Source: Cyanobacteriota bacterium
GTDB taxonomy: Bacteria; Cyanobacteriota; Cyanobacteriia; Cyanobacteriales; Nostocaceae
Assembly: GCA_046045965.1 (NCBI GenBank)
Contig: JBJOKS010000018.1
Coordinates: forward strand, 56,297-120,296
DNA length: 64,000 nucleotides
Reading direction: 5' to 3'
This document shows, piece by piece, positions 1 to 17,445 of this stretch; the stretch's first letter is position 1; each line of letters begins with the position of its first letter. The translations under genes and the position numbers were made by a program. The notes below the pieces were generated by a model. That model was given only the letters and a program-made list of their open reading frames with translations, was not told where the DNA came from and ran no database searches.

Positions 1-990
1 TGGTCCACCGGCATTAGTTAAAATTGTTAATCTTGGACCTTTGGGTCGCGGTTGTTTTGCTAATACTTCTGACATATCAAATAAATCAGAAATACTATCA
101 ACTCTTAATACTCCACACCGACGAAAAGCTGCATCTAAAACAGCATCACTTCCTGCTAATGATCCTGTATGAGAAGCGGCCGCTTTTGCTGCTGCTGCGG
201 TACGACCAGCTTTAATAACAATTATCGGTTTTGTTAATGCTACTTCTCGCGCTGCGGAAAGAAAAGAACGCGCATCACCGATTGATTCCATATAGATTAC
301 AATACTTTTTGTATTGGGATCATCTCCCAAATAATAAATTAAGTCTCCCCAACCTATATCTAACATTGAACCGATAGAAACAAAGGCACTAAAACCAACG
401 TTTTCCTGTAAACTCCAATCCAAAATTGATGTACATAATGCCCCACTTTGACTTAAGAAACCTACATTTCCTGGTTGTGCCATTTTACTAGCAAATGTAG
501 CATTTAAACCAGAAATTGGACTCATAACTCCTAAACAGTTTGGTCCAATAATTCTAATTTTTCCTTTGTGTGCTATTTCCAGAATTTCTTGTTCTAAAGC
601 AATTCCTTTTTCTCCTGCTTCTTTAAAACCAGCAGAGATAATTATTGCTCCTTTAATTCCGGCTTTTACGCAATCAGTAATAATTTGTGGTACTGTGGGT
701 GCAGGGGTAGCAATTACCGCTAAATCAATTTTTTCAGGAACATCAAAAATTGTCGGATAGGCTTTAATTCCTAATACACTATTGCGTTTGGGATTGATGG
801 GAAATACTGTACCATTGAAAGGGTTTGTAATTAAATTCCAGAGTAAGGTTCTACCCACACTTCCGGGTTTTTCACTTGCACCAATGACGGCTACGGTTTG
901 AGGGGCAAAAATCGCGTCTAAGGGGTTGATTTTCTCGGTTTGTAAGATGTCGTAAGCTTTGTCTGTCGTTGGTTTGATAGATGCTTGCAT
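1..990 (-). CDS. Acyl/acetate-CoA ligase (NDP-forming) family protein, probably the bifunctional ligase/GNAT acetyltransferase; 5' part only, runs off the window edge
   Basis: Not in the ORF track; translated by hand from ATG at 990 (AGGAG RBS upstream): [46 protein letters not shown]...IIGPNCLG...SQSGAL...YMESIG...KAGRT...SHTGSLAG...TNAGGP, the CoA-binding and ligase motifs. The GNAT part would lie outside the window. Confidence 0.88.
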
Positions 991-1073
991 AATTACTCCT
1001 TAATTAGTTATTAGTCATTAGTTATTGGGTATTAGTGTTTTTTTTCAATTACCCATTACCTATTACCCATTTT

Positions 1074-1541
1074 TCACTCTGAATTCATCCCTAAATTGTT
1101 ATGTTTATCTAGAATTTGCATAATTTTTGATAGTGCAGTGGTAATACCTTTTTGTGCTGTAGGTGAAATGCGATCGCTCAATTCAAAATTAACACCTGGG
1201 ACAGTGACTAACCATGCTAATGGACAATTACCATAGAGAAATTGAGCCAGAAAAAGTAAGGTTTGCGGATCACTTGTATGGGGATTAATAGTATTTGATT
1301 CACTAGGTAATAATGGTTTTACCTGTACTTCATGAGATTGGGAATTAATACAGGCATCCACAAAAATTGCTAACTGAGAATTTGCCAAAGGTTCAGCTAA
1401 TTCTGGTGTAAGTTGGTGAACAGCAACTGATTTTACAGATGATAAACACCAAAATTTTATAGCCTTTGCTACCTGTTGTCCAATGGCATCATCACCCCGT
1501 AATTCATTACCGTAACCAATCACTATTGCAGTTCCACTCAT
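1074..1541 (-). CDS. hoxW: Hydrogenase maturation endopeptidase for HoxH
   Basis: GYGNELRGDDAIG, HQLTPEL, IFVDA and H-x-x-x-P motifs; close to the hox cluster. Confidence 0.9.
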   Translation of the reverse strand: MSGTAIVIGYGNELRGDDAIGQQVAKAIKFWCLSSVKSVAVHQLTPELAEPLANSQLAIFVDACINSQSHEVQVKPLLPSESNTINPHTSDPQTLLFLAQFLYGNCPLAWLVTVPGVNFELSDRISPTAQKGITTALSKIMQILDKHNNLGMNSE

Positions 1542-1725
1542 TACCTGATCATCCTCTTAGTAAGTCACTAATTGCTTGTATTATTAGACATTTTAGCTTT
1601 TGGATTGCTAATTCCCTTTCCCTTGTAAATATACCTTGGTTGAAATCCATCTCTCACAATCATTTGACAAATTAGTAGAATTGGCATATTGTCATTTAAA
1701 ATCAGCATTCTCTTCTTTATATTTG

Positions 1726-1759
1726 AGCTTAAAACAAAAGTTTGAGGAACTTGTGAGGA
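1726..1759 (-). promoter_or_regulatory. Putative OmpR/PhoB-type direct-repeat box (TCCTCAC-AAGT-TCCTCAA) plus -10 element TAAGCT, upstream of hoxW
   Basis: TTTGAGGAACTTGTGAGGA (1741-1759) is exactly repeated at 10429-10447; 7-4-7 repeat followed 10 nt later by TAAGCT on the minus strand. Confidence 0.65.
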
Positions 1760-1909
1760 AATATAATAATTTAACAATTACTATTTTTCGACAACTTGAC
1801 AAATTTATGTTAATACTCTATTCCTTTTCAGAATTATTAGTTATATGATTAATTTGCGTGGTGAAATCAAACCCGTTAAAAAAAATTAGATAAATTGTGA
1901 GGCTGTTTT

Positions 1910-2296
1910 ATGCCTGAAGTAAATTTTCAACAGCCAATTAAGAGTGCTGCTACTCTGATTGAGGAATATGTAGCGGGAAAACGAGACTTTGAACGAGCAG
2001 AATTAGGTGATGCTAATCTGCAAGGTGTAGACTTAAAAGGGTCTGACCTCAGCTATGCTGATTTAAGTACAGCCAACCTCAGCCGTGCTATTCTGCGGGG
2101 ATGTGATCTTAGCTATACTGATTTGAGTCAAGCTAATTTACAAAATGCAGATTTGCGAGGTGCGATGTTGTTTTCTGCGGATCTGCGTCAAGCTGATTTA
2201 CAGGGAACACGTTTAGAAAAAGCAGATTGCGACCATAACACCCATTTTCCCCCAAATTTTGATGCTATTACAGCTGGTGTAAAGATGAGCAAATAA
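1910..2296 (+). CDS. Pentapeptide repeat protein
   Basis: Y-x-A-G-x-R-D-F start followed by tandem A(D/N)Lxx repeats. Confidence 0.92.
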   Translation: MPEVNFQQPIKSAATLIEEYVAGKRDFERAELGDANLQGVDLKGSDLSYADLSTANLSRAILRGCDLSYTDLSQANLQNADLRGAMLFSADLRQADLQGTRLEKADCDHNTHFPPNFDAITAGVKMSK

Positions 2297-2312
2297 CCGG
2301 ATGAATACTGAT

Positions 2313-2338
2313 GCGGCTATATCAGCCGCCTATTTTTA
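2313..2338 (+). terminator. Intrinsic terminator-like hairpin
   Basis: GCGGCT-ATATC-AGCCGC followed by CTATTTTT just after the pentapeptide gene stop. Confidence 0.5.
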
Positions 2339-2409
2339 TACAGATGTAAATATTAAAAGTTAATAAAACCCTAATAGATCACTTGACAAATATAATAGCA
2401 GATTTGATA

Positions 2410-2517
2410 TATAGCAGTTCCCATGCTCGTGAGGTACAAAGTTTTTTAGTTTTAGGGAACAGGGAAATCTTAACAGGGAATAAATTGGTATTTACTTCAT
2501 TAGACTGAGCAACTCTA
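2410..2517. mobile_element. Degenerate MITE-like element (TATAGC-type end)
   Basis: Left end TATAGCAGTTCCCATGCTCGTGAGGTACA; the right end is only a weak inverted match; AGGGAAC-type repeats inside. Confidence 0.4.
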
Positions 2518-2550
2518 CAATATCATACGTTATATTATAGTAAAAATTAC

Positions 2551-2667
2551 TATAGGAATCATATTTGATTCTTGAAAAACACTCCTTACACTTTCCTTGT
2601 TAAGAGTTCCCTGTTAAGATTTCCCTCTCTACACAGATAATTTCAAAAATCAAATACCAGTCCTATA
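2551..2667. mobile_element. MITE with 27-bp terminal inverted repeats and TA ends (IS630/Tc1-mariner-like)
   Basis: TATAGGAATCATATTTGATTCTTGAAA ... TTTCAAAAATCAAATACCAGTCCTATA, 23/27 inverted match. Confidence 0.72.
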
Positions 2668-2689
2668 TCAACCGAAATTAATAAAACCC

Positions 2690-3205
2690 ATGAGAAAGAT
2701 CCGCTTATTTATTGCTTCTAGTCTCGACGGATATATTGCAGATAAAACCGGGAAAGTAGATTGGTTATTTACTGACGATGATTATGGTTATTCTGAGTTT
2801 TTTAACCAAATAGATACTTTAATCATGGGAAATAAAACATATCAACAAATTCTCGGTTTTGGTGAATATCCCTATCCTGGAAAAGAAGCATTTGTTTTTT
2901 CCAAGATGCAGCATGGAGAACAAGATGATCATGTCAAATTTGTCGGGGAAGATTTAGAGAACTTTATCAAAAACTTACGTCGATCTAGTGGTGATGATAT
3001 TTGGCTAGTTGGTGGTTCACAGGTAATCGAATTTTTTATGGAAAAGGGATTTTTGGATGAAATTATTATTGCTATCCATCCAATTATTTTAGGGGATGGT
3101 ATTCCTTTATTTAGCAAGAATACCAATATTACGCAAAGATTAGATTTAATAGATGTGAAAACGTATCCTTCGGGATTAGTGCAAGTTTATTATTTATTCT
3201 GTTAA
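2690..3205 (+). CDS. Dihydrofolate reductase-like / RibD C-terminal domain protein
   Basis: IASSLDGYIA, MGNKTY, IWLVGG, LDEIIIAIHPIILGDGIPLF. Confidence 0.9.
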   Translation: MRKIRLFIASSLDGYIADKTGKVDWLFTDDDYGYSEFFNQIDTLIMGNKTYQQILGFGEYPYPGKEAFVFSKMQHGEQDDHVKFVGEDLENFIKNLRRSSGDDIWLVGGSQVIEFFMEKGFLDEIIIAIHPIILGDGIPLFSKNTNITQRLDLIDVKTYPSGLVQVYYLFC

Positions 3206-3260
3206 ATCAATGATCACCGCTTGACTTCACCCCTTTCAATAACAAAAATTTTTCCTTTTT

Positions 3261-3278
3261 CCTCCCCTGTAGGGGAGG
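3261..3278. repeat. Short palindrome between convergent genes (possible bidirectional terminator)
   Basis: CCTCCCCT-GT-AGGGGAGG. Confidence 0.5.
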
Positions 3279-3303
3279 GTTAGGGAATGGGGAATCTCAA
3301 TAA

Positions 3304-4752
3304 TTAATCCCTGACAATTTGATTAACTATTGTGCCATCTTTTGCCACTAATTCTATTAGTACAGGCATTTGTCCCACCGCATGAGTAGAACAACTTAAA
3401 CAAGGATCAAAAGCCCGAATACCAGCCTCCACACGGTTTAACATTCCTTCTTTAATTTCACTACCTTGGATAAAATAACGGGCAATTTGAGCAACTGTAC
3501 GATTCATTGCTAAGTTATTTTGACCAGTTGCAATAATTAAATTTACCTTCAACATCAAACCATTTTCATCAACTTGATAATGATGGAATAAAGTCCCCCT
3601 TGGTGCTTCACTCACACCCACAGCTTCTAATTGATTAATACCAGCTTCCGCACGCAGACGAGTTGATAAAATCTCTGGGTCATCAAGTAAAATTTCGATG
3701 TGTTCAATACAAGCCAAAATTTCAATTAACCGCGCATAGTGATAAAAGAAAGAAGATTTTACCGTACCAGTTCCATAACTGCGAAATTCTTTTAATTCCT
3801 TATCAGCTAAAGGTGTACCAATGTGACTGCAAATATTCAATCTTGCTAAAGGTCCAACCCGATACATTCCACTATCTAAACGACAATGATCACTTGTGTC
3901 TGGATAGCCTAAAGGACGATAGTAAGGAGATTTCAAATAAGAATCTTCTTGAACTGCTTCACCAAGAAATTCTTGATAATTAGCAGCATCTAATTTATCA
4001 GCAACTATGTTTCCCGCACTATCAACAAAACGGATATGTCCATCATAAGTTTCCCATAAACCTTCTGATGTGACTAACCCCATAAATAAACTAGGGAAAT
4101 TACCAAAAGTTTGCGCTTCTTTTTCGTAATCTTTTAACAAGCCCTTAAATAAATCTATGGCATTTAAAACAGTGGTTTTAGCTTCAGGAATACGTTGTTG
4201 AATGTGAGTGCGATTTTCTTGGGTTAAAGGATCACTAACTCCACCAGGAACCGCCCAAGAAGGATGGATTTTTTTCCCTCCTAATAATTCAATAATTTCT
4301 TGTCCAAATTGCCGTAAACGAATACCACCTCTGGCTAATTCTGGATCTGCGGCTATCAAACCAAATACGTTACGGTTAGCAGGTTCGCTATCCATTCCTA
4401 ATAATAAATCTGGGGCGCTAAGGTGAAAGAAACTCAAAGCATGAGATTGGACAATTTGCCCTAAATTCATTAAACGGCGTAATTTTGTAGCGGTTTTGGG
4501 GATAGTTACAGCCAGAATTTGGTCGCCTGTTTTTGCTGATGCTAACAAATGGCTTACCGGACAAATACCGCAAATTCTCGCAGTAATTCCTGGCATTTCT
4601 GGAAACGGACGACCCACACAAAACTTTTCAAAACCGCGAAATTCTGTCACATGAAACCGCGCATCATTTACTTGACCGTCATCGTCTAAATAAATGCTAA
4701 TTTTCGCGTGTCCTTCAATGCGAGTAACCGGATCAATAATTATTTTTTTCAT
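3304..4752 (-). CDS. hoxH: Bidirectional NiFe-hydrogenase large subunit
   Basis: [16 protein letters not shown] and DPCLSCSTH with a cleavable C-terminal tail. Start placed at ATG 4752 (MKKIIIDP); the upstream extension in the ORF track is STRR read-through. Confidence 0.96.
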
Positions 4753-4756
4753 AAGA

Positions 4757-4791
4757 GACTGGGGACTGGGGACTGGGGACTGGGGACTGGG
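4757..4791. repeat. STRR1-type heptamer array (GACTGGG/CCCAGTC)
   Basis: Five tandem GACTGGG units immediately upstream of the hoxH start. Confidence 0.9.
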
Positions 4792-4836
4792 AATTACTAT
4801 TTTCTCAATCCCCAATTATGAATTACGAATTATCAA

Positions 4837-5451
4837 TTACAGATCATAAACCCTAGCTTCTTCGGCTTCTGGATACTCTTCACAGTATTCTTCAAAAGCT
4901 GTTTTTAGGGGTTTCATAGCCCGTTGGTGAGAAATTTCGGCTTGTATTTCTTCTACCACATCCCAAGCGGCTGCACATTCGGGGGAATTAATACCTTTGT
5001 CTGCACAAACAAGACGGGCTTTTCTAATTTCATCTTGTAATTCTTGTTCTAACAGAATTGAATGAGGTTTTTCTAAAGAACTGCTTCCAGCCAAGATATC
5101 AGTTAATGAGATTATTCCTAATAATTCACCACTAATTACAGGCGCACGCCGCAAATGATGATCAGCAAATAATCTCGCTACATATTCTAAACCCAGACTA
5201 GGATTAACAACAATGCAAGGTTTAGTCATGATTTCATAGATACGGACTTTATTTGGGTCTTTTCCATAAGCTATAACTTTATAAACAATATCGCTTTCAG
5301 TCACAATTCCATAAGCATCTTGTTCATGACGACGATCTACAATTAACGCTCTCCAGTCTCTAGCTTTCATTAAATCAACCGCTTCTTTGACTGTAGCAGA
5401 ACCACGAATCATTGCTACATCTTTTGTCATTACATCTGCTGCTGTTAACAT
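4837..5451 (-). CDS. CBS-pair/CP12 fusion protein
   Basis: Two CBS repeats, then the CP12 core C-x9-CAAAWDVVEE and EEYC...PEAEE.RVYD. Confidence 0.88.
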   Translation of the reverse strand: MLTAADVMTKDVAMIRGSATVKEAVDLMKARDWRALIVDRRHEQDAYGIVTESDIVYKVIAYGKDPNKVRIYEIMTKPCIVVNPSLGLEYVARLFADHHLRRAPVISGELLGIISLTDILAGSSSLEKPHSILLEQELQDEIRKARLVCADKGINSPECAAAWDVVEEIQAEISHQRAMKPLKTAFEEYCEEYPEAEEARVYDL

Positions 5452-5529
5452 AATTCACCTCTTTAAAAAATAGGGTACTGGGTACTGGGTACTGGGTACT
5501 GGGGATAATAATTAATTACCAATTACCAA

Positions 5530-6075
5530 TTACCCAAACTTAATCATTTCTCTGCCTTCCATTAGTGGTTTTTCTCCTTTTAATAATGGTTCAAGTGTGG
5601 CACGAATACGGGGGGCTGAAGGTGGACAACCGGGTAAATAAATATCAACTGGTACTACATAATGAACAGGTATAACTGTATCAAGTAATGGGGGAACTAT
5701 ACCAGGTGAATGGGGAATTTTTTGGTTAATATCAGCACCTTGAATATAAGCTAATTGCAAGCTGACATCAGCATTTCCTGTCGGGTTACGCATGGCGGTT
5801 ACATTACCAGTTACAGCGCAATCTCCAAAGGAAATTATTGTTTTGGTGCGTTGTCTAATAATGTGGATTAATTCTAAATGTTCTTCGTTAGCTATAGCCC
5901 CTTCAACTAATACCACATCCACACCTTCTGGATATTCTTTAATATCAGCAATGGGACTATAAACTACATCCACTTGTTCGGCTAAATCTATTAACCATTC
6001 ATCCAAATCAAGAAAAGACATATGACATCCAGAACAACCACCTAACCATACTGTTGCGAATTTAATTTTAGTCAT
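5530..6075 (-). CDS. hoxY: Bidirectional hydrogenase small subunit
   Basis: WLGGCSGCHMSFLD, FGDCA, LPGCPP. Confidence 0.96.
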   Translation of the reverse strand: MTKIKFATVWLGGCSGCHMSFLDLDEWLIDLAEQVDVVYSPIADIKEYPEGVDVVLVEGAIANEEHLELIHIIRQRTKTIISFGDCAVTGNVTAMRNPTGNADVSLQLAYIQGADINQKIPHSPGIVPPLLDTVIPVHYVVPVDIYLPGCPPSAPRIRATLEPLLKGEKPLMEGREMIKFG

Positions 6076-6103
6076 TTTTTACCTTGTTAGTAATTTGTTT
6101 TTT

Positions 6104-6132
6104 GTAGGGGTTTAGGATTGCTAAAACCTTAC
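6104..6132. repeat. GTAG-type REP-like palindrome
   Basis: GTAGGGGTTTAG-GATTG-CTAAAACCTTAC, an imperfect inverted repeat inside the hox operon. Confidence 0.55.
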
Positions 6133-6134
6133 TT

Positions 6135-6656
6135 TCAATGATCATTTGTAATTAATGATTTCCATTCTTTAACAACATGAACAGGAACTGAGAGATTAAT
6201 AGATTTGAGACCAGGTAAAGGTATTGCTAAATTTAAAGATTCTGGAGGTAATTGGGGCAGTATTTTAGTGAAATCATATTGACCAATAGTAGGGGCTGGT
6301 GCTTCATCTAAAAACACATCTGCTGCATTCCAAACTTTACCTGTATCTGAGGTGATTTTTAAAGGTTGGGGATGAATTAATTCCGCAGTACCAGGAAAAC
6401 CAACTAACCGGAGATTGATTGTAGTTGCTTCACCAGGATAGACTTGTTTAAATAATACAACCTGCCAAACCTTACCTGATTGATCATCTAATTTTGTTTG
6501 TGAGCGATAAAGAATTTCTCCTGGTATTTCTTCTATTTTGGTAACAACAGCAATTGCACTCTTGAAGGTGAAATTTGCTAAACCCAGGAATATAACTATT
6601 GTCAATATTCCCAGTAATATCACCCGTAAAAATATTTTTCCAATCCAGTGGAACAT
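6135..6656 (-). CDS. Exported/membrane-anchored conserved cyanobacterial protein (DUF3122-like) between hoxU and hoxY
   Basis: N-terminal hydrophobic segment; YRS..L.D..G..WQVVLFK and LRLVGFPG...HP.PL motifs; GGAGG RBS. Confidence 0.7.
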   Translation of the reverse strand: MFHWIGKIFLRVILLGILTIVIFLGLANFTFKSAIAVVTKIEEIPGEILYRSQTKLDDQSGKVWQVVLFKQVYPGEATTINLRLVGFPGTAELIHPQPLKITSDTGKVWNAADVFLDEAPAPTIGQYDFTKILPQLPPESLNLAIPLPGLKSINLSVPVHVVKEWKSLITNDH

Positions 6657-6707
6657 CAGATTTACCTCCCGGTAATTGATAAGAAATATTCCCCGGTTCC
6701 CAACCTT

Positions 6708-7424
6708 CTAAAAATTCCATTGTTTTTTCTCCCTTGCAGTGACTAAAAAATCAATTTTGCCCCGTTCATGTACCATTTCACTGACGCTTGAACCTTTATT
6801 AAACAGCGCACCTGTGGGACAGGCATTCACACATTTACCACAGGAAGTACAAGTTTGAGAAGTTCCCCAAGGCTGATTTAAATCAGTAATCACGTGAGAT
6901 TTTGATCCTCTTCCTGCCATATCCCAAGTATGTGCGCCTTCGATTTCATCACAGACACGAACACAACGAGTACAAAGTACACAACGATTATGATCAATCC
7001 CAAAACGGTCATGAGAAGTATCAACGGCACGAACAGGATTTTGATATTCTAATCTGACGTGATCCATACCCATTTCGATAGCTAAATCTTGTAATTCACA
7101 ATTGCCATTAGCAACACAAACAGAACAAATGTGATTACCTTCTGCAAATAGCATTTCGATGATTGTACGACGGTATTTTTGCAAGCGATCGCTGTTTGTC
7201 GTCACCTCCATTCCTTCTGAAACTTTTGTGACACAAGCTGGTAAAAGTCTATTCATCCCCGCAATTTCTACCAAACACAATCTACAAGCTCCCACATCTC
7301 CCACACCTTCTAAATGACAAAGTGTAGGAATATGCACACCCGCTTCTTGCGCTGCTTCTAATAAGGTTTCATCCTCACGGGCGCTAATCATTTGCCCGTT
7401 AATTGTTAATGTTTTTACTGTCAT
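6708..7424 (-). CDS. hoxU: Diaphorase subunit (2Fe-2S/4Fe-4S)
   Basis: [40 protein letters not shown]. Confidence 0.96.
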
Positions 7425-7429
7425 AATAA

Positions 7430-7560
7430 TTTGGTAATGGGTAATGGGTAATTGCTAATTGGTGATTGGTAATTGGTGATAGGGAAGAAAGAATAAACTC
7501 TTGCCTTTTGCCTTTTGCCTCTTGCCTTCTTACTGTTCCCTGTTCCCTGTTCCCTATTCC
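7430..7560. repeat. Composite STRR block (GGTAATT-like array, conserved spacer, TTTTGCC array, CTGTTCC array)
   Basis: Three heptamer arrays; the 25-bp core 7489-7513 is identical to 50210-50234. Confidence 0.85.
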
Positions 7561-9152
7561 CTAACTAATGCCAAATACTCATCATGGAAATAACGCAAAG
7601 TGCTAAAAACGGGATTTGGTGCAGACTGGCCTAAACCACATAAACTTGTGTGTTTCACCATGTCGCAAAGTTCTTCTAATAATTGCAAATCAGCTTTTGC
7701 TGCTTTTCCTTCACTAATCTTGGTTAATAAATCATGTAGTTGCACAGTTCCCACTCGACAAGGAATACATTTACCACAAGATTCATCCATGCAAAATTCC
7801 ATGAAAAATCTCGCCACATCTACCATATTTGTGGTTTGATCCATCACAATCATCCCACCAGATCCCATCATTGAACCTAACGCGGTTAAGGATTCGTAAT
7901 CTACAGGTGTAGCAAATGCTGATGCTGGGATACATCCCCCGGAAGGTCCGCCTGTTTGTACTGCTTTAGCAATACCATCGGGAACTCCTCCCCCCATTTC
8001 TTCGACAATTTGTTGTAAAGTTGTCCCCATTGGAACTTCAATTAAACCAGTGTTGCGGATTTTTCCAGCTAAAGCAAAAACCTTTGTACCTTTACTTTTT
8101 TCTGTGCCAATATTAGCAAACCAATCAGCACCATTTCTGATAATTGGGGCAATATTAGCAAAGGTTTCTACATTGTTAATTAAGGTTGGATAACCCCATA
8201 AACCTGATTCAGCCGGGTATGGTGGACGGGGATGAGGGACACCGCGTTTACCTTCAATAGAAGCCATTAACGCCGTTTCTTCACCGCAAACATAAGCCCC
8301 TGCACCGATGCGAATTTCAATTTTAAAATCAAAAGGTGATTCAAAAATTTGTGAACCTAAAAGTCCTAAACGTTGGGCTTGACGAATTGCAGTTTCTAAT
8401 CTTTTAATAGCAATCGGATATTCTGCCCTGACATAAATATAACCTTGAGTTGCACCGATGGCATAAGCTGCGATCGCCATTCCTTCTAACACTCGATGGG
8501 GATCACTCTCCAACACACTCCGATCCATAAATGCACCGGGATCACCTTCATCAGCATTGCAAATTACAAACTTTTTCTCACCTTTTGATTTTGCTACTGT
8601 CGCCCATTTTAAACCGGTGGGATAACCAGCACCACCCCTTCCTCTTAACCCACTTTTAGTAATAGTTTCTACTACCTCAGTTGGTTTCATTTCTCTTAAT
8701 ACTTGGTAAAGGGCTTGATAACCATTTTCTACAATGTAAGATTGAATTCTTTCTGGGTCAACTTTACCACTGTTTTCTAACACAATCGGTAACTGACCAG
8801 TAAAAAATGGCTGCTGCAAATCTTGTTGTTTTAAATTCGTTTCTTCTCCTTGAATACTTGCAATAACTTTTGCGGCCTCCTCTGGGGTAACTTGTTCATA
8901 AAGTTTCGTTTCTTTGTTGTTTTCTTGATCCACTTGTACCAAAGGACCTTGACAACAAAGCCGCATACAACCCACACCAGAAACATGAATCTGATCTTCT
9001 AAACCCGCAGCTTTTACAGATTTATCTAAATTATCTTTTACTGCTTGAGAACCGGAAGATAAACAACCCGCAGCTGTACAACAACGAATCTGCACAGGTT
9101 TCGCTTGAGAACGTTCAGTTCTCGCAATTTCTAATAATTCATTTAGTTCCAT
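7554..9152 (-). CDS. hoxF: Diaphorase NADH/FMN-binding subunit
   Basis: [53 protein letters not shown]. Confidence 0.96.
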
Positions 9153-9651
9153 TTTCCTGCCATTCTCCCACTTTTTCGCAAACTGATTCTGAGGTTTGAT
9201 TTCCTAAAACTGCACCATCAAAAACTACCGCAGGTGCAATACCACAAGCACCCAAACACCTCGCTGTCATCAAGGAAATTTCCCCATCTGGGGTTGTTTC
9301 TCCAGCTTTAATATGAGTGGCTGTTTCTAAACTTTTTAAAATTTCTTGTGCGCCTTTCACATAACAAGCTGTACCCGTACAAACTACACAATTATGTTTA
9401 CCTTTCGGTGCCAGGGAAAACAAATGATAGAAAGTGGCAACTCCATACACACGACTCGGTGGTAATTTCAATTGATGGGCAATGTACAATAATAAGTCTA
9501 ACTCTAAATAACCGAATAATTCCGAAGCTCGATGGAGAATTTCAATTAGTGCATCTTGTTGATATTGATGACGTTTGATAGTTGCATCCAACATCTTCAA
9601 ACGTTTATCACCACTGGGATGAGTAGATGGGGGTGAAACAGAAGTTTTCAT
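9139..9651 (-). CDS. hoxE: Diaphorase 2Fe-2S subunit (NuoE-like)
   Basis: GVATFYH, CTGTAC, CLGAC; overlaps the hoxF start. Confidence 0.96.
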
Positions 9652-9652
9652 G

Positions 9653-9737
9653 ATTGGTAATTGGTAATTGGTAATTGGTAATTGGTAATTGGTAATTGGT
9701 AATTGGTAATTGGTAATTGGTAATTGGTAATTGGTAA
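9653..9737. repeat. Heptamer STRR array ATTGGTA x12
   Basis: Perfect tandem array abutting the hoxE start codon. Confidence 0.95.
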
Positions 9738-9753
9738 TATTTAAAAATCTTCC

Positions 9754-10251
9754 CTATTCCCCATTCTCTATTCCCTCAAAATGGATAATATGCACAGAAC
9801 AAGGGGCATGATGTAAAACATAATTGCTGACACTACCAATTAAAAATTCGGTGATACCAGAAAGTCCTCTTCTTCCAATCACAATCAAATCAGCATTCCA
9901 TGTCTTAGCCATTTGGCAAATTATTTTACCGGGACTACCCACATTTTGCGTAAATTCTGTGTTAAGGTTTTCTGTATTGGCTTGGGCGCAGAATGCTTGT
10001 AACATTTCCAAACCTTCGTTTTGATGGACTGCCAACTTTTGCAAGTACCTTTTCATACTGTCATCACCCCAGCCTGGATAATAATCCATCTGAGAAATAA
10101 GCATCATATCAGGAATACCATCTTCATCTGGTGATAGAACGTGTAGTAGCATTAAGTTAGCTGATGTCAGCTTTGCTAAAGACAGGGCTTGTTCAAAAAC
10201 TTGCTTACCCATGTCCGAACAATCCAATGCCACTAAAATTTTGTTAAACAT
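9754..10251 (-). CDS. Universal stress protein (UspA family), first gene of the hox operon
   Basis: MFNKILVALD ... ADLIVIGRRG...IGSVSNYVLHHAPCSV; GAGGG RBS favours ATG 10251. Confidence 0.93.
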   Translation of the reverse strand: MFNKILVALDCSDMGKQVFEQALSLAKLTSANLMLLHVLSPDEDGIPDMMLISQMDYYPGWGDDSMKRYLQKLAVHQNEGLEMLQAFCAQANTENLNTEFTQNVGSPGKIICQMAKTWNADLIVIGRRGLSGITEFLIGSVSNYVLHHAPCSVHIIHFEGIENGE

Positions 10252-10413
10252 AGATACCCTCATTTTAGCTCGCTCATGATTAACAATAGCTCTTTCTGTT
10301 GTATGAATTCCTGTTTGGTAAAAATACGTTTATTTCATTTGGATTTCGTTACAATCATCTTCACAATTCGTTAATCTAAACACCTATCCTTGTACTTGGT
10401 TCTACACTTATGC

Positions 10414-10447
10414 TTTATACGCCAACAATTTGAGGAACTTGTGAGGA
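10414..10447 (-). promoter_or_regulatory. Second copy of the OmpR/PhoB-type box plus -10 element TATAAA, upstream of usp-hoxEFUYH
   Basis: 19-bp identity to 1741-1759; the same 10-nt spacing to a -10-like hexamer (10414-10419, minus strand). Confidence 0.65.
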
Positions 10448-10576
10448 TAGATGATTGGTATAGCAGGAGTTAGGTGTCAGAATAAAGATAACTGTTCCCT
10501 ATTTCTGGAGTTGTTTCATTTTTACTACCAATTTACTACCAATTTTTAAAACTACTAGATCAAGGAAGCTTTTAAA

Positions 10577-13500
10577 ATGAAAATTTTAGTGATCGAGGAT
10601 GACGAGTTAAATGCCTATGCACTCACCGCCGTTCTCACTGACCAAAATTATGCGGTAGAAGTGGCGACTGATGGTGATGCAGCCTGGGATTTAGTTGAAA
10701 CCTACGATTATGATTTAATACTTTTAGATGTCATTCTACCTAAGCTAGATGGTATTAGTTTATGCCGGAAAATTCGTTACAGTGGTCGGCAAGTACCAAT
10801 TTTATTATTAACAGGATGTGATAGCTCTCATGATAAAGCTATTGGCTTAGATGCAGGTGCAGATGATTATGTAGTGAAACCTTTTGATCAAGAAGAGCTA
10901 GTAGCCCGTGTTAGGGCATTATTACGACGGGGTAGCATCACCTCAAAACCTGTATTAGAGTGGGGTAATTTACGATTAGATCCCAGTAGCTGTGAAGTCA
11001 CATATCACCAAAACCTCCTCTCACTCACCCCAAAAGAGTACGCTTTGTTAGAACTTTTGATGCGAAATAATCGCCGCGTATTTAGCTGTGGGATGATTTT
11101 AGAACATCTTTGGTCCTATGAAGATACACCTGGAGAAGAAGCCGTTCGCACCCATATTAAAGGTTTACGCATGAAGCTCAAATCAGTGGGAGCGCCTCAT
11201 GATTTAGTAGAAACAGTATATGGGATTGGTTATCGTCTCAAAGCTCAGGAAGAAGGGGAGCAAAACGCAGGGAGCAAGGAGCAGGATACTAATTCAAAAT
11301 CTCAGCAAACTCTGACTGCTATTGGGGAAATTTGGCAGCGATTTCGTGGTCGGATAGAGGAGCAAGTTAGCATTATAGAACAAGCTACACAACAAGTTTT
11401 AAATCCAGTTTTAAATCCAGAATTGCTATCACAAGCTGCTAAAGAAGCCCACACATTAGCAGGTTCTTTAGGCACTTTTGGCTTGGCTTCAGGTTCAGAA
11501 TTAGCTAAAAAAATTGAGAATTTATGGAAATCTCCTAAAAATTTAACTGCAACTGACATAAATAACCTACAAAATTGGGTCAAGTTACTGCGTCAAGAAA
11601 TTGATAGTAAAAATCAGAAAAATCCACACCCTACAATTAATAGCTATCAACAGTCTTTAGTTGTTGAGGAAGAATTAGACCAAACAACAACCAAAGCGAA
11701 AATATTAGTAGTAGATGATGATCCACAAATTTTAGCATTATTACAAACATTCCTGACACCTTGGGGACTGGAGATTATTCCACTTAATGATCCTCTTCAA
11801 TTTTGGGAAACTTGGCAAAAAGTAAAGCCAGATATGCTGATTCTGGATGTAGAAATGCCTGGTAAAAATGGGATTGAATTATGTCAACTGATCCGCAACG
11901 ATCCCCAAGGAAGTGAGCTACCCATCTTGTTTCTCACAGTCCATAATGATGCAGAAATTGTGAATCAGGTGTTTAGCGCCGGTGCTGATGATTTTGTCAG
12001 CAAACCCATTATCGGTTCGGAACTGGTAAACCGCATCATTAACCGATTAGAACGAGTGAAACTCTTGAGAAGAATGGCACAAACCCGAAATCAACAAATT
12101 CATGAACTGGAAAATCAAACTCGATTTATTCAAGAAAGTTATCACAATTTAGTAGAAGTTTATCCAGACGCAATTTTTATTATCAGTGACAATAATTTTG
12201 TGTTTGTAAACAGCGCCGCAGTCACACTTTTTGGTGTTACTTCAATAGCAGAATTATTAGGTAAACCATTTCTCGACTTTGTACATCCCAATTACCAAGC
12301 TGGAATTAGGGAAAATCTCCAATACCTGAAAATAAATAAACAATCAATTCCCTTACATGAAGTTAAGTTTTTAAGGGTGGATGGGAGCGCCATTGATATA
12401 GAAATTGTCGCAGCAGATATTATTTACCAAGGTCAACCAGCATCCCAAATTGTCGCTCGTGATATTACTCAACGCAAGCAAACAGAATTAGCACTAAATA
12501 TAGCTAAGGACGAACTAGAATTAAGAGTTGTAGAACGCACTGCGGAGTTAATTACTGTTAATCATCAGTTGCAGTCTCAACTAGATGAACGACGACGTAC
12601 ACAGGAAGCTCTGCGAATTTCTCAAACTAGATTTGAAGGCATTTTGAGCATTGCTGATGATGCAATTATTTCTATTGATGGTAGTCAAATCATTACTTTA
12701 TTTAATCAAGGTGCAGAAAAGATTTTTGGTTATTCTGCTCAAGAAGTGCTAGGAGAAAAACTAGATTTACTATTACCGATGCGCTTTGCTGAACAACATC
12801 GCCATCATGTATCTGATTTTGGTAAAACTTCTAGTCCTGCTCGCAGAATGGGGGAAAGACGGGAAATATATGGTCGCCGCAAAGATGGTACTGAATTTCC
12901 CTCTGAGGCTTCTATTTCTAAATTAGATGTTGGTGAAGAATGTGTTTATACAGTTATATTGCGAGATATAACTGAACGCAAACAAGTGGAGAAAATGAAA
13001 GATGAGTTTGTCTCTGTTGTCAGTCATGAACTGCGTACTCCCCTAACTTCAATTCATGGATCTTTAGGAATGTTAGCTAGTGGGTTGTTACCAACAAACT
13101 CAGAACAAGGTAAACGCTTGCTACAAATTGCGACAGATAGCACTGAACGTTTGGTGAGGTTAATTAATGATATTCTCGACATTGAGCGCATCGAGTCGGG
13201 TCAGGTAAAAATGGAGCGCGAAAATTGCAATCTGGAGGATCTAATTAAGTCGGCTGTGAATATTATGCAGCCTCTGTCCAATAAAGCTGGAGTAAATTTA
13301 TCTATTTCTAATTTATCTGTACAACTCTGGGCTGATCCAGATCGAATTATCCAAACTTTGACTAATTTGTTGAGTAATGCCATTAAATTTTCTGCTTCTG
13401 GTTCTACGGTTTCATTGATGACGGAACTAAAAGAGAATGAGGTTTTAGTGATCGTCAAAGATACCGGCAGGGGAATACCCGCTGATAAGCTAGATAGTAT

Positions 13501-14482
13501 TTTTGAAAGGTTTCAACAAGTTGATTCTTCAGATTCTCGCAACCACGAAGGTACTGGTTTAGGTTTGGCTATTTCTAAGAGCATTGTACAGCAGCACGGT
13601 GGAGAAATATGGGTAGAAAGTGAGTTAAACACAGGTAGTAATTTTTATTTTACCCTGCCAATTTGCGAGATTTTTCACAATGCTGAATCAGAAAATTCTG
13701 CGGATGAAGAAATGCTAATTGCTAATCAGTATTCTCCTTTAGTTTTAGTTTGTGATGACGATGTTGTGATCCGCAATGAATTACAAAAATTGTTGGAACA
13801 AGGAGGATATCGGGTGATCACGGTAGATAGGGGTGAAGAAGCGATCGCTCAAGCAGTTTCTCAACATCCAGATGTGATTTTACTAGATTTACTCATGCCA
13901 GGTATGAATGGCTGGGAAACAATGGCACTATTAAAAGAAAGCTCAGATACTCAGGATATACCTATTGTGATTTGTAGTGTCTACAAACCCAGTCAAAGTA
14001 ATCCATCAAATGCTGATTTTGTAGATTGGTTAAGTAAGCCAGTAGAAGAAAACTCTCTATTAAATTCCTTGAGAAAAGTGATATCTGAACCTTCTCGAAA
14101 AGCGAGAATTTTAATTGTTGAGGATGATAATGATCTGGCTGATTTATTAGCAACTTTGTTTGAGAGACATGATATTGAAACTTTCATCGCTAAAACTGGT
14201 AGGGAAGCTATTCATCTCAGTCAAAAAATCAATCCTGATTTACTAATTCTTGATTTAATTTTGCCTGAAAGTGATGGTTTTACAGTTGTGGATTGGTTAA
14301 AACAACATAATCACCTTTTTAGTATTCCCGTGGTTGTTTATTCTGCTAAGGATTTGGATGATTCGGAACGCCATAGATTAAAATTAGGACATACAGAATT
14401 TTTGACTAAAGGACGAGTTACTACCCAGGAATTTGAACAACGCGTGATGGATCTGCTCCAAAGAATGACTCAAAATCATTGA
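10577..14482 (+). CDS. Multidomain hybrid: REC - OmpR wHTH - HPt - REC - PAS - PAS (heme-like) - HisKA - HATPase - REC - REC
   Basis: LLDVILP...GADDYVVKPF; LTPKEY.LLE...VRTHIKGLR.KL...ETVYGIGY; EAHTLAGSLGTFG; SHELRTPL; NLLSNAIKF, DTGRGIP, GTGLGLAI; four Asp-containing receiver domains. Confidence 0.93.
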   Translation: MKILVIEDDELNAYALTAVLTDQNYAVEVATDGDAAWDLVETYDYDLILLDVILPKLDGISLCRKIRYSGRQVPILLLTGCDSSHDKAIGLDAGADDYVVKPFDQEELVARVRALLRRGSITSKPVLEWGNLRLDPSSCEVTYHQNLLSLTPKEYALLELLMRNNRRVFSCGMILEHLWSYEDTPGEEAVRTHIKGLRMKLKSVGAPHDLVETVYGIGYRLKAQEEGEQNAGSKEQDTNSKSQQTLTAIGEIWQRFRGRIEEQVSIIEQATQQVLNPVLNPELLSQAAKEAHTLAGSLGTFGLASGSELAKKIENLWKSPKNLTATDINNLQNWVKLLRQEIDSKNQKNPHPTINSYQQSLVVEEELDQTTTKAKILVVDDDPQILALLQTFLTPWGLEIIPLNDPLQFWETWQKVKPDMLILDVEMPGKNGIELCQLIRNDPQGSELPILFLTVHNDAEIVNQVFSAGADDFVSKPIIGSELVNRIINRLERVKLLRRMAQTRNQQIHELENQTRFIQESYHNLVEVYPDAIFIISDNNFVFVNSAAVTLFGVTSIAELLGKPFLDFVHPNYQAGIRENLQYLKINKQSIPLHEVKFLRVDGSAIDIEIVAADIIYQGQPASQIVARDITQRKQTELALNIAKDELELRVVERTAELITVNHQLQSQLDERRRTQEALRISQTRFEGILSIADDAIISIDGSQIITLFNQGAEKIFGYSAQEVLGEKLDLLLPMRFAEQHRHHVSDFGKTSSPARRMGERREIYGRRKDGTEFPSEASISKLDVGEECVYTVILRDITERKQVEKMKDEFVSVVSHELRTPLTSIHGSLGMLASGLLPTNSEQGKRLLQIATDSTERLVRLINDILDIERIESGQVKMERENCNLEDLIKSAVNIMQPLSNKAGVNLSISNLSVQLWADPDRIIQTLTNLLSNAIKFSASGSTVSLMTELKENEVLVIVKDTGRGIPADKLDSIFERFQQVDSSDSRNHEGTGLGLAISKSIVQQHGGEIWVESELNTGSNFYFTLPICEIFHNAESENSADEEMLIANQYSPLVLVCDDDVVIRNELQKLLEQGGYRVITVDRGEEAIAQAVSQHPDVILLDLLMPGMNGWETMALLKESSDTQDIPIVICSVYKPSQSNPSNADFVDWLSKPVEENSLLNSLRKVISEPSRKARILIVEDDNDLADLLATLFERHDIETFIAKTGREAIHLSQKINPDLLILDLILPESDGFTVVDWLKQHNHLFSIPVVVYSAKDLDDSERHRLKLGHTEFLTKGRVTTQEFEQRVMDLLQRMTQNH

Positions 14483-14567
14483 ATAAGGCAGGAAGTAGAT
14501 AATTAAAATGATGTTATAATCTACTTTTAATTATCTAAAATCTAAAATTTATCAGGAGATAGGAATA

Positions 14568-14954
14568 ATGACAAAAAAGCAAATTTTAGTAGTTGATAAT
14601 GAGCCGTATATTCAAGAAATAGCTAAAATTTGTTTGGAAACTGTTGCCGGTTGGGAAGTGCTGACTGCTAGTTCTGGTCAAGAGGGAATAGTACAAGCAG
14701 AAAATCATCAACCAGATGCGATTTTATTAGATGTAATGATGCCGGATATGGATGGAATTGCTGCTTTTGAAAATTTACAAGCAAATCCAAATACAAAAGA
14801 AATTCCGGTGATTTTGTTAACTGCAAAAATCCAAGTTGCTGACCGTCGTCGTTATGCTCAGTTGGGAATAAAAAGTGCGATCGCTAAACCATTTAATCCT
14901 CTAGAATTAGCAGGACAAGTAGCAGCAGCTTTGGGTTGGAATTTGGAAAATTAA
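14568..14954 (+). CDS. Single-domain (CheY-like) response regulator
   Basis: ILVVDN, LLDVMMPDMDG, LLTA, AKPF; AGGAG RBS; directly downstream of the hybrid kinase. Confidence 0.93.
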   Translation: MTKKQILVVDNEPYIQEIAKICLETVAGWEVLTASSGQEGIVQAENHQPDAILLDVMMPDMDGIAAFENLQANPNTKEIPVILLTAKIQVADRRRYAQLGIKSAIAKPFNPLELAGQVAAALGWNLEN

Positions 14955-14964
14955 ATGAAACTAA

Positions 14965-14995
<31 letters not shown>

Positions 14996-15016
14996 ATTCT
15001 GACTCCTGCTGTATAG

Positions 15017-16917: not shown

Positions 16918-17445
16918 ATGTTTAACAAAATTTTAGTTGCTCTCGACAACTCTGCCAGCAGTCAGTATATTTTTGAGCAAGCCCTATTTTTAGCCAAAGC
17001 CAGTGAGGCAGAAATGATGTTGCTTCACGTTTTATCTCCTTTAGAAGATCCTTATATCAACCCGATATTTTTGCAGCCAGAAACTATATATCCCACCTTG
17101 CACACTGAAACCATTAATCAATATTTGCAAGCTTGGGATCAACTCAAGCAAGATAGACTAGATTGGATGCGATCGCTAACTCAAACAGCAGTTAATACAG
17201 GTGTCAAAACTGAATTTACTCAAACTGTAGGTGATGCAGGCCGCATTATCTGTGAAATAGCTTTAAGTTGCCCAGCTGACTTAATTATAGTCGGTCGCAG
17301 GGGACGTACTGGTATCAGTGAAGTTTTTTTAGGCAGCGTTAGCAACTACGTTTTACATCATGCTCATTGTTCAGTTCTCACCATCCAAGGCTTAATTCCC
17401 CTCATCACACCAAACACCGAAACCACCCAAGTAGCTTCCACGTAA
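16918..17445 (+). CDS. Universal stress protein (paralogue of 9754-10251)
   Basis: MFNKILVALD ... ADLIIVGRRG...LGSVSNYVLHHA. Confidence 0.93.
   Translation: MFNKILVALDNSASSQYIFEQALFLAKASEAEMMLLHVLSPLEDPYINPIFLQPETIYPTLHTETINQYLQAWDQLKQDRLDWMRSLTQTAVNTGVKTEFTQTVGDAGRIICEIALSCPADLIIVGRRGRTGISEVFLGSVSNYVLHHAHCSVLTIQGLIPLITPNTETTQVAST

What the first reader, a model, noticed from the sequence alone, without database searches (positions are those of the whole stretch)
1726..10447. Identical 19-bp direct-repeat box with pho-box geometry in front of both hox transcription units
Seen: TTTGAGGAACTTGTGAGGA occurs exactly at 1741-1759 and 10429-10447, in the same orientation, in otherwise unrelated intergenic DNA 8.7 kb apart, and it is not an STRR. 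On the minus strand each copy reads TCCTCAC-AAGT-TCCTCAA (7-4-7, 11-bp period), followed after exactly 10 nt by a -10-like hexamer (TAAGCT at 1726-1731; TATAAA at 10414-10419). The copies point at hoxW-ligase and at usp-hoxEFUYH. Known: this is the layout of PhoB-activated promoters, and the described cyanobacterial hox regulators are LexA and cyAbrB types. Inference: this is the operator of an OmpR-family activator, most simply the wHTH-bearing hybrid kinase that starts 130 bp from the second copy.
Basis: partly seen in the sequence, partly recalled or inferred. Interest (0 to 1): 0.86.

Follow-up and report, generated by a model that had tools for sequence, protein, structure and literature searches.

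The report
Fermentation-and-hydrogenase promoter box in cyanobacteria
A short DNA repeat sits exactly 10 bases before a promoter-like element in front of hydrogenase, fermentation and stress genes in many cyanobacteria; it is likely the landing site of an unstudied two-component activator whose built-in sensor is predicted to bind haem and possibly sense oxygen.

Summary
Observation confirmed: the 19-mer is exact at both sites (shuffle mean 0.03). It is wider than hox. This genome has nine boxes, all outside long ORFs, each with TA exactly 10 nt downstream. They precede hoxW, usp-hoxEFUYH, nifJ, ppsA, PTOX and others. The box occurs in several cyanobacterial families (1058 hits vs 8 control in 151 same-family genomes); 31 of 32 unanchored sites keep the 10-nt spacing. 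It tracks the adjacent RcaC-type regulator: 122 of 122 genomes with the orthologue have two or more boxes, against 4 of 29 without. All 37 box-rich genomes of a 201-genome order sample have a wHTH with the same recognition helix. Five box-bearing genomes showed no such protein. The kinase part has a FixL-like PAS with invariant His (118 of 118). In Nostoc PCC 7120, ptox, nifJ, hox and ppsA fall together 42- to 107-fold (PMC7699953), but on a CO2 shift in air, so the signal is open. Binding, TSSs and haem are untested. I found no description in the papers searched. This scan found the same box before on other DNA (e1-7603903; probably e1-3080482).

The parts
1742..1759 (-). Box 1: direct repeat TCCTCAC-AAGT-TCCTCAA, predicted activator site of the hoxW / acetate-CoA ligase unit
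   Evidence: PWM 43.6 bits
1726..1731 (-). Predicted -10 element TAAGCT, 10 nt after box 1; predicted TSS near 1719 (inferred)
   Evidence: spacing statistic
1074..1541 (-). hoxW, hydrogenase maturation protease (target)
   Evidence: TIGR00072 54.4 bits, above cut-off
1..990 (-). 5' part of an ADP-forming acetate-CoA ligase gene with C-terminal acetyltransferase domain (922 aa, runs off the window); likely co-transcribed with hoxW
   Evidence: TIGR02717 above cut-off; coordinates
10430..10447 (-). Box 2: same direct repeat, predicted activator site of the usp-hoxEFUYH unit
   Evidence: PWM 49.1 bits, best in genome; kept in this position in 9 of 9 same-family regulator loci
10414..10419 (-). 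Predicted -10 element TATAAA, 10 nt after box 2; predicted TSS near 10407 (inferred)
9754..10263 (-). usp (universal stress protein), first gene of the hox unit and commonest target of the box elsewhere
   Evidence: PF00582; 23 of 80 loci
3304..9651 (-). hoxE, hoxF, hoxU, DUF3122, hoxY, CBS-CP12, hoxH (target unit)
   Evidence: HoxE and HoxU equivalogs above cut-off, NuoF-like, hydrogenase large-subunit-like; DUF3122 and CBS/CP12; hoxY had no hit at 1e-60 and is named by position and recall
10577..14482 (+). Candidate cognate regulator-kinase, 1301 aa: REC-wHTH-Hpt-REC-PAS-PAS-HisKA-HATPase-REC-REC
   Evidence: Pfam; D51, H292 invariant in 120 of 120 and H817 in 119 of 119 homologues
10949..11248 (+). 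wHTH domain; recognition helix EEAVRTHIKGLR that co-occurs with the box
12620..12985 (+). FixL/DosP-like PAS directly before HisKA, predicted haem-binding (His741 proximal, Arg762 distal)
14568..14954 (+). Single-domain receiver (RcaF-like position), predicted relay between kinase and Hpt
   Evidence: PF00072; a homologue lies near the regulator in most loci, but was not seen in those of G222, G335, G137, G186 and G107

Best explanation
The repeat is likely the binding site of a phosphorylation-controlled OmpR/PhoB-type activator, most likely the RcaC-type regulator-kinase encoded at 10577, which would switch on a fermentation, hydrogenase and stress regulon. Shown: the box, its fixed position 10 nt before a TAnnnT-like hexamer (so it covers the -35 region), its targets, its co-occurrence with one wHTH recognition helix, and the conserved phospho-acceptor residues. 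Inferred mechanism: a signal read by the FixL-like PAS, most likely falling O2 at a haem, turns on His817 autophosphorylation. Phosphoryl groups would pass via a receiver (the adjacent single-domain REC or an internal one) to Hpt His292 and then Asp51. Two wHTH domains would bind head-to-tail on the 11-bp repeats and recruit sigma region 4, as PhoB does (recalled). Output here: hoxEFUYH, hoxW, acetate-CoA ligase, nifJ-DHODH-pfkA, ppsA, PTOX, usp.
For: Nine of nine PWM hits above 12 bits in the genome lie outside ORFs of 120 aa or more, with one reversed-matrix control hit at 13.4; eight point at a gene 52-218 nt away and one points off a contig end. TA lies at offset 10 in 31 of 32 sites found without a -10 anchor; the next best offset has 10. 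Hits vs reversed control: 123 vs 1, 1058 vs 8, 301 vs 6. Family: 122 of 122 genomes with the orthologue have two or more boxes vs 4 of 29 without. Order: 37 of 37 genomes with three or more boxes carry the helix E[ED][AS][VI]RT[HQ]IKG. In family f34 that helix was found once in each of 8 of 8 genomes read in full, in a protein only about 60% identical in the wHTH, while 0 of 12 box-poor genomes read in full had it. The regulator has no box within its 12-13 kb locus in G137, G186, G125 and G107, so linkage alone does not explain this. The PAS best matches FixL (E 3e-21; Foldseek TM 0.83); His is kept in 118 of 118 and always lies just before HisKA. PMC7699953 Table 2: ptox -65, nifJ -42, hox clusters -74, ppsA -107, while every other down-regulated entry of that table is between -1.9 and -3.3.
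Against: No binding, TSS or mutant data. Five same-family genomes have boxes but no protein with the helix was found (G313 6 boxes, G243 4, G471 3, G304 2, G259 2); G313 is 99% complete in 60 contigs. Four genomes have the helix but only 1-2 boxes (G143, G152, G190, G083). The haem-like PAS was not found at E 1e-30 in 16 of 37 box-rich genomes, and it occurs in 52 of 164 others, so it is neither required nor specific. The distal Arg is Gln or Lys in 27 of 118. The PCC 7120 co-regulation came from a 3% to 0.04% CO2 shift in air and light, not from an O2 change, and I could not see PCC 7120's own promoters. The E-value cut and the helix signature were chosen after seeing data, and related genomes are not independent.
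Confidence: 0.72

Rival explanations
1. Same box and same regulator, but the main input is not O2: it is carbon excess, cellular redox or another ligand read by the variable PAS/GAF modules or by separate kinases, and the haem-like PAS is one optional input.
For: The regulon is high in 3% CO2 in air and light and collapses 1 h after washing into 0.04% CO2 (PMC7699953). 16 of 37 box-rich genomes lack the PAS at E 1e-30. Sensor modules between REC2 and the haem-like PAS vary (773 to 1885 aa). PTOX needs O2 as substrate (established knowledge). Cys171 in the wHTH is invariant in 120 of 120.
Against: The one sensor module kept in 118 of 120 fused homologues is the FixL-like PAS, always 12-13 aa before HisKA. 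Targets include O2-sensitive enzymes: PFOR, pyruvate formate-lyase, hydrogenase. hox and nifJ rise under microoxia in Synechocystis (PMC11368403, passages), though the regulators named there are cyAbrB2 and SigE.
Confidence: 0.3
2. The box is read by another factor (an alternative sigma factor, or LexA, cyAbrB, RpaA or another OmpR paralogue) and the 10577 gene merely travels with the usp-hox cluster.
For: Five box-bearing genomes without the helix. The regulator is often adjacent to a box. LexA and cyAbrB are the published hox regulators (PMC13421787, PMC4463661, passages).
Against: Co-occurrence holds where the regulator locus has no box and in two separate tree branches that share only the helix. 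The box does not match the LexA, NtcA, ChlR, pho, HLR1 or L-box patterns scanned. The ten other wHTH proteins of the genome are only 27-36% identical and lack the helix. An 11-bp tandem repeat is not a sigma -35 element (established knowledge).
Confidence: 0.1
3. The regulator binds the box as a repressor that blocks the -35 region until a signal releases it.
For: The box overlaps the -35 position. RcaC is recalled to both activate and repress through L boxes.
Against: Strict orientation and an exact 10-nt spacing in 31 of 32 sites are expected of an RNA-polymerase contact, not of steric blocking. No TTGACA-like -35 is left under the box.
Confidence: 0.06
4. The 19-mer is a dispersed repeat, a mobile-element end or a chance duplication with no regulatory role.
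For: Five exact copies lie within 37 kb of one contig.
Against: Only nine copies per genome, flanks unrelated, oriented toward genes of one pathway, conserved across families with fixed spacing; 1 of 80 loci lies inside an ORF of 100 aa or more.
Confidence: 0.01

Closest known systems
PhoB and the pho box (E. coli); SphR in cyanobacteria (recalled)
   Same: Two direct repeats with 11-bp period, 10 nt upstream of the -10 element and replacing the -35; OmpR-family wHTH reader.
RcaE-RcaF-RcaC phosphorelay and L box of Fremyella diplosiphon (RcaC architecture and L box recalled; no paper on them was held)
   Same: REC-wHTH-Hpt-REC output module, a neighbouring single-domain receiver, and a direct-repeat operator.
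   Different: The kinase is fused and carries PAS domains, no GAF in this protein. The box sequence differs. Targets are fermentation, hydrogenase and stress genes, not phycobiliproteins.
FixL-FixJ of rhizobia and E. coli DosP (haem-PAS O2 sensors)
   Same: PAS fold, proximal His and distal Arg (aligned with the position mutated in the R220A structure 1y28), placed directly before the kinase domain.
   Different: Output is an OmpR wHTH in a multi-step relay within the same polypeptide, not FixJ; haem binding is not shown here; the domain is missing from some lineages.
cyAbrB1/2, LexA, SigE control of hox and nifJ; ChlR low-oxygen activator (PMC11368403, PMC13421787, passages)
   Same: Overlapping targets (hox, nifJ) or the same presumed signal (low O2).
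   Different: Those are nucleoid proteins, a sigma factor or a MarR Fe-S sensor with a palindromic site. No two-component box for Nostocales hox, nifJ, ppsA or ptox appears in the passages read.

Membership tests
PhoB/OmpR-type class II activator site | Tandem direct repeat with 11-bp period | tested here: met
   TCCTCAC-AAGT-TCCTCA(A/C); column counts
PhoB/OmpR-type class II activator site | Fixed orientation, 10 nt before a -10 element | tested here: met
   TA at offset 10 in 31 of 32, TAnnnT in 24 of 32 (one of the 32 is from this genome)
PhoB/OmpR-type class II activator site | Intergenic, upstream of co-regulated genes | tested here: met
   9 of 9 outside long ORFs; 79 of 80; co-regulation of homologous targets in PCC 7120
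PhoB/OmpR-type class II activator site | Mapped TSS about 7 nt after the hexamer | tested here: inconclusive
   The Fischerella TSS table is a gene subset and held no boxed promoter; RNA contigs cannot show starts
PhoB/OmpR-type class II activator site | Bound by a wHTH protein that activates transcription | not testable with these tools
   Only co-occurrence
Pho regulon (PhoB/SphR pho box proper) | Pho-box sequence and phosphate-uptake targets | tested here: not met
   No match to the recalled SphR pattern in either region; targets
RcaC / L-box system | REC-wHTH-Hpt-REC architecture with intact Asp and His | tested here: met
RcaC / L-box system | L-box sequence, bilin-GAF sensor, phycobiliprotein targets | tested here: not met
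   No match to the recalled L-box pattern; no GAF in this protein; no such targets seen
FixL-type haem-PAS O2 sensor kinase | PAS of the FixL/DosP group next to HisKA | tested here: met
   All 14 profile hits at E 1e-8 are FixL, DosP or the FG214 haem PAS; 12-13 aa before HisKA in 118 of 118
FixL-type haem-PAS O2 sensor kinase | Proximal His and distal Arg | tested here: met
   H741 in 118 of 118; R762 in this protein and 91 of 118
FixL-type haem-PAS O2 sensor kinase | Haem binding and O2-controlled autophosphorylation | not testable with these tools
   I recall, uncertainly, a report that a PAS of PCC 7120 Alr2428 binds haem; the paper I tried was not held
FixL-type haem-PAS O2 sensor kinase | FixJ-type (LuxR HTH) partner | tested here: not met
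   The output domain is Trans_reg_C wHTH

The most novel reading that the evidence does not exclude
This is the missing oxygen switch of cyanobacterial fermentation: a FixL-type haem O2 sensor wired through an RcaC-type phosphorelay, fused into one protein in Nostocales, that activates the bidirectional hydrogenase, PFOR, PEP synthase, PFL and PTOX through one DNA box. It would be a cyanobacterial counterpart of FNR/ArcA/FixLJ, with its gene already present in the model strain PCC 7120.
Probability: 0.42. Interest if true: 0.9.

Novelty: new variant of a known kind. Interest (0 to 1): 0.77.

Why it matters
What activates the bidirectional hydrogenase and PFOR in filamentous cyanobacteria is open. 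The reviews and papers read here name LexA, cyAbrB, SigE and RpaA, mostly from unicellular strains. One PCC 7120 study found ptox, nifJ, hox and ppsA collapsing together, called the ptox result surprising, and could only suggest LexA or cyAbrB for hox (PMC7699953). This finding offers a box, a regulon, a candidate regulator (orthologue BAB74127.1 in PCC 7120) and a candidate sensor domain, each testable with one knockout, one gel shift and one spectrum. It would also give a tight inducible promoter and a handle on H2 production.

Tried and rejected
Dispersed repeat or STRR: rejected. Hox-specific operator: rejected, since hoxH is in 18 of 37 box-rich and 85 of 164 other genomes. Best wHTH E-value alone as an orthology marker across the order: misleading in f34, f37 and f27, where the best hit is another paralogue; reading the helix resolved this. 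Monophyly of the helix-bearing proteins was not tested: they fall into a 32-row group drawn open (88/97, includes one long-branch row without the helix) and a 3-row clade. Haem-PAS as a universal marker: not supported. PAS1 matched no informative structure. Single-sequence fold failed (pLDDT 44); the 9-row alignment fold worked (82.6). TSS evidence: the Fischerella table held none of six box variants but covers only selected genes; the readable Nodularia supplements hold no TSS table; contigs of one metatranscriptome run could not show starts. The Acaryochloris low-O2 paper had no relevant passage. Papers not held: PMC2042057, PMC3250118, PMC1489541 and two DOIs. Supplements of PMC7699953 could not be read; they would show whether usp, hoxW and the other predicted targets move too. 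LexA-like matches at 2 mismatches and one NtcA-like palindrome near box 2 were seen and judged weak. No complex prediction was run. Literature searches for the claim 'not found in print' were made; one search listed 30 of 230 papers, none with either 15-mer and none on cyanobacteria; most subscription papers are outside the library.
Full report
Observation. The 19-mer is exact at 1741-1759 and 10429-10447 on the same strand. Nothing else in the window matches at up to 3 mismatches, and 100 shuffles give a mean of 0.03. The minus-strand layout TCCTCAC-AAGT-TCCTCAA, 10 nt, then TAAGCT or TATAAA is as described. The two intergenic regions share little else. The copies point at hoxW plus an ADP-forming acetate-CoA ligase and at usp-hoxE-hoxF-hoxU-DUF3122-hoxY-CBS/CP12-hoxH (hoxY named by position).

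The box in this genome. The 18-mer is exact five times, all on contig C18, and four near copies exist. A matrix trained on 203 sites from fetched loci (nearly all from other genomes; the own-genome loci L001-L006, L032 and L037 were left out) finds nine sites above 12 bits (22-49 bits), none inside an ORF of 120 aa or more; the reversed matrix gives one hit at 13.4. Besides the two window sites, they precede ppsA (C18:30157+), a 71-aa CxxC protein with no family (30080-), nifJ-dihydroorotate dehydrogenase-like-pfkA (44113-), a 134-aa phosphatase/sulfur-transferase-like gene (44214+), PTOX (C5:120829-), and a radical SAM gene followed by an NrdG-like gene (C58:11312+). One points off a contig end (C13:231-). 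Two pairs are back-to-back at divergent genes. All nine have TA at offset 10.

Conservation. The exact pattern CTCACAASTTCCTCAM gave 123 matches in 40 of 201 order-level genomes against 1 for the reversed control. In the 32 distinct sites of the 30 loci returned, found without any -10 anchor, TA lies exactly 10 nt after the box in 31 and TAnnnT in 24; the next best offset has 10 TA (one site is from this genome and several are from close kin). With the TA anchor and one mismatch: 1058 matches in 133 of 151 same-family genomes (control 8); 301 in 57 of 201 order genomes (control 6); 36 of 251 phylum-level genomes, with multi-copy genomes in two families of other orders and only one single hit outside the class. 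77 titles name cyanobacteria (Nostoc, Anabaena, Calothrix, Fischerella, Chlorogloeopsis, Chroococcidiopsis, Leptolyngbya, Phormidesmis, Kamptonema, Xenococcus and others); three say 'uncultured bacterium'. One of 80 lies inside an ORF of 100 aa or more. Downstream genes: usp 23, ppsA 7, the CxxC protein 5, nifJ 3, PTOX 3, hsp20 3, pyruvate formate-lyase 2, a PflA-like radical SAM 2, acetate-CoA ligase 2, a 4Fe-4S dicluster protein 2, hoxE 2 (one after usp), CBS-CP12 1, and many singletons. Boxes also precede hoxW, hoxU, hoxE or hoxF separately where the hox cluster is split (G051, G037, G324). The box is not hox-specific: 18 of 37 box-rich genomes have hoxH, and 85 of 103 hoxH genomes have fewer than three boxes.

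The 10577 protein is REC-wHTH-Hpt-REC-PAS-PAS-HisKA-HATPase-REC-REC. The ten other wHTH proteins of the genome are 27-36% identical to its wHTH. In the order sample the 23 best-scoring genomes all have an exact box, against 17 of the other 178. In the family, best E-values have a gap near 1e-40. 122 of 122 genomes above it have two or more boxes (median 7, maximum 24), against 4 of 29 below it. The cut was chosen after seeing the data; the seven borderline genomes were read, six carry EEAVRTQIKG and one QEAVRTQIKG. The helix E[ED][AS][VI]RT[HQ]IKG was defined from box-positive genomes and then tested in family f34, where the best hit is another paralogue. Each of 8 of 8 genomes read in full has exactly one protein with PGEEAVRTHIKGLR at about 60% wHTH identity. 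In all, 37 of 37 order genomes with three or more boxes have it. None of 12 genomes with 0-2 boxes whose paralogues were read in full has it (52 rows); helices of most of the other 164 genomes were not read. Against: G313 (6 boxes), G243 (4, 860 contigs), G471 (3), G304 (2) and G259 (2) showed no such protein, and G143, G152, G190 and G083 have it with only 1-2 boxes. In the tree the helix-bearing rows form a 32-row group drawn open and a separate 3-row clade. The regulator lies next to a box in 9 of 9 same-family loci, but has no box within 12-13 kb in G137, G186, G125 and G107, so hitch-hiking does not explain all. Related genomes are not independent, so the Fisher values overstate.

The sensor. 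The second PAS best matches FixL (E 3e-21) and DosP. Its model (pLDDT 82.6) matches FixL haem domains first (TM 0.83). His741 aligns with the FixL His of the RSRHDSY helix (the haem ligand, recalled), and Arg762 with the position mutated in the R220A structure. Among the 120 best homologues listed (of 1342), 118 have this PAS, His is kept in 118 of 118, Arg in 91, and it always ends 12-13 aa before HisKA. D51, C171 and H292 are kept in 120 of 120 and H817 in 119 of 119. Other sensor modules vary. In G110, G253, G294, G212 and G034 the PAS lies in a separate neighbouring protein, a HisKA kinase where enough of it was held. But it was not found at E 1e-30 in 16 of 37 box-rich genomes (family f17, most of f33, G037, G108) and is present in 52 of 164 others. 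It is therefore the likely input in Nostocales, not a universal one.

Outside evidence. The PCC 7120 orthologue is BAB74127.1, 59-67% identical in two blocks. That it is alr2428 is my recall. One paper names alr2428 only as an uncharacterised hybrid sensor-regulator in a homology list (PMC12267927, passages). In PMC7699953 (abstract, introduction, methods, part of the results, figure legends and Tables 1-3 read; supplements unavailable) ptox (-65), nifJ (-42), both hox clusters including alr0750 (-74) and ppsA (-107) are the only large decreases in Table 2; the rest are -1.9 to -3.3. These are the homologues of four box targets here. The shift was from 3% to 0.04% CO2 in air and light after pelleting and washing, so it supports co-regulation but not O2 as the signal. 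I could not see PCC 7120's promoters. PMC2670836 (section 8 and passages) maps a hoxW start with a -10 (TAGCTT) and no -35 box, which fits an activator but does not show the box. PMC13421787, PMC11368403, PMC4463661, PMC2674450, PMC4183373, PMC5295598, PMC12789804, PMC8707292 and PMC4263535 were seen as passages only. PMC5580265 and PMC3610870 were seen as supplement listings and searches, plus part 1 of one table. No passage describes this box or regulator.

Mechanism, steps marked. Shown: box, spacing, targets, co-occurrence with one helix, intact relay residues, FixL-like PAS. Inferred: haem binding; O2 control of His817; relay through a receiver to His292 and Asp51; head-to-tail binding of two wHTH domains over the -35 region and recruitment of RNA polymerase, by analogy with PhoB and RcaC (recalled). 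Rivals are a non-O2 signal (0.3), another reader (0.1), repression (0.06) and a non-functional repeat (0.01).

Novelty. The parts are of known kinds. The operator, the regulon and the pairing of a FixL-type PAS with an RcaC-type relay were not found in the searches, which miss most subscription papers. This scan's earlier notes describe the same box in another genome (e1-7603903) and probably in a third (e1-3080482), and one note gave me the haem lead (e1-2696106). They are unchecked AI notes and are not counted as support. Verdict: real, a new variant of a known kind, interest 0.77.

Noticed in passing
window 11087-11089 (Cys171 of the 10577 protein): A Cys in the wHTH (VFSCGM) is invariant in 120 of 120 homologues but replaced in the f34/f37 branch; a possible thiol switch.
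   Followed up: partly
L001:9739-9954 (C18:29739-29954, minus): 71-aa protein starting MNYCPCC with a second CxxC; no Pfam or NCBIfam family; follows a box here and in 5 of 80 other loci. Possibly a small metal-binding redox protein of the regulon.
   Followed up: partly
C18:28800-71300 (left of and including window 1-15000): A 42-kb cluster of polyphosphate kinase 2, ppsA, pyruvate kinase, a hybrid kinase, pfkA, DHODH-like, nifJ, sucrose synthase, GH65/beta-PGM, acetate-CoA ligase, hoxW, hox, usp and the regulator: a near-complete sucrose-to-acetate-plus-H2 route.
   Followed up: partly
window 10392-10405: A perfect GTAN8TAC (NtcA-like) palindrome just after the predicted usp-hox start; not kept in G114 or G198, so probably chance.
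   Followed up: partly
window 16918-17445: A second usp gene 2.4 kb past the regulator has no box by the matrix scan.
   Followed up: partly
L211 (G305) and L212 (G269): The regulator gene is in pieces in these two genomes, in one beside transposase-like ORFs, yet each keeps five boxes: recent decay or assembly error.
   Followed up: no
L092:2581-3729 and L125:2581-3735: A box precedes a 4Fe-4S dicluster (Fer4_22) protein, possibly the first gene of another hydrogenase or sulfite-reductase-like operon.
   Followed up: no
window 7417-7562, 9640-9776, 5476-5547: Heptamer STRR arrays between hox genes; ordinary for Nostocales.
   Followed up: no
L005:6410-7901 (C58): Box-led radical SAM gene of no assigned family followed by an NrdG-like activase, both below curated cut-offs.
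   Followed up: no
window 12620-12985: The FixL-like PAS family is widespread in cyanobacteria (73 of 201 genomes, up to five copies), suggesting many unstudied haem sensors; PDB 10jx is a related haem PAS from a one-component transcription factor.
   Followed up: partly
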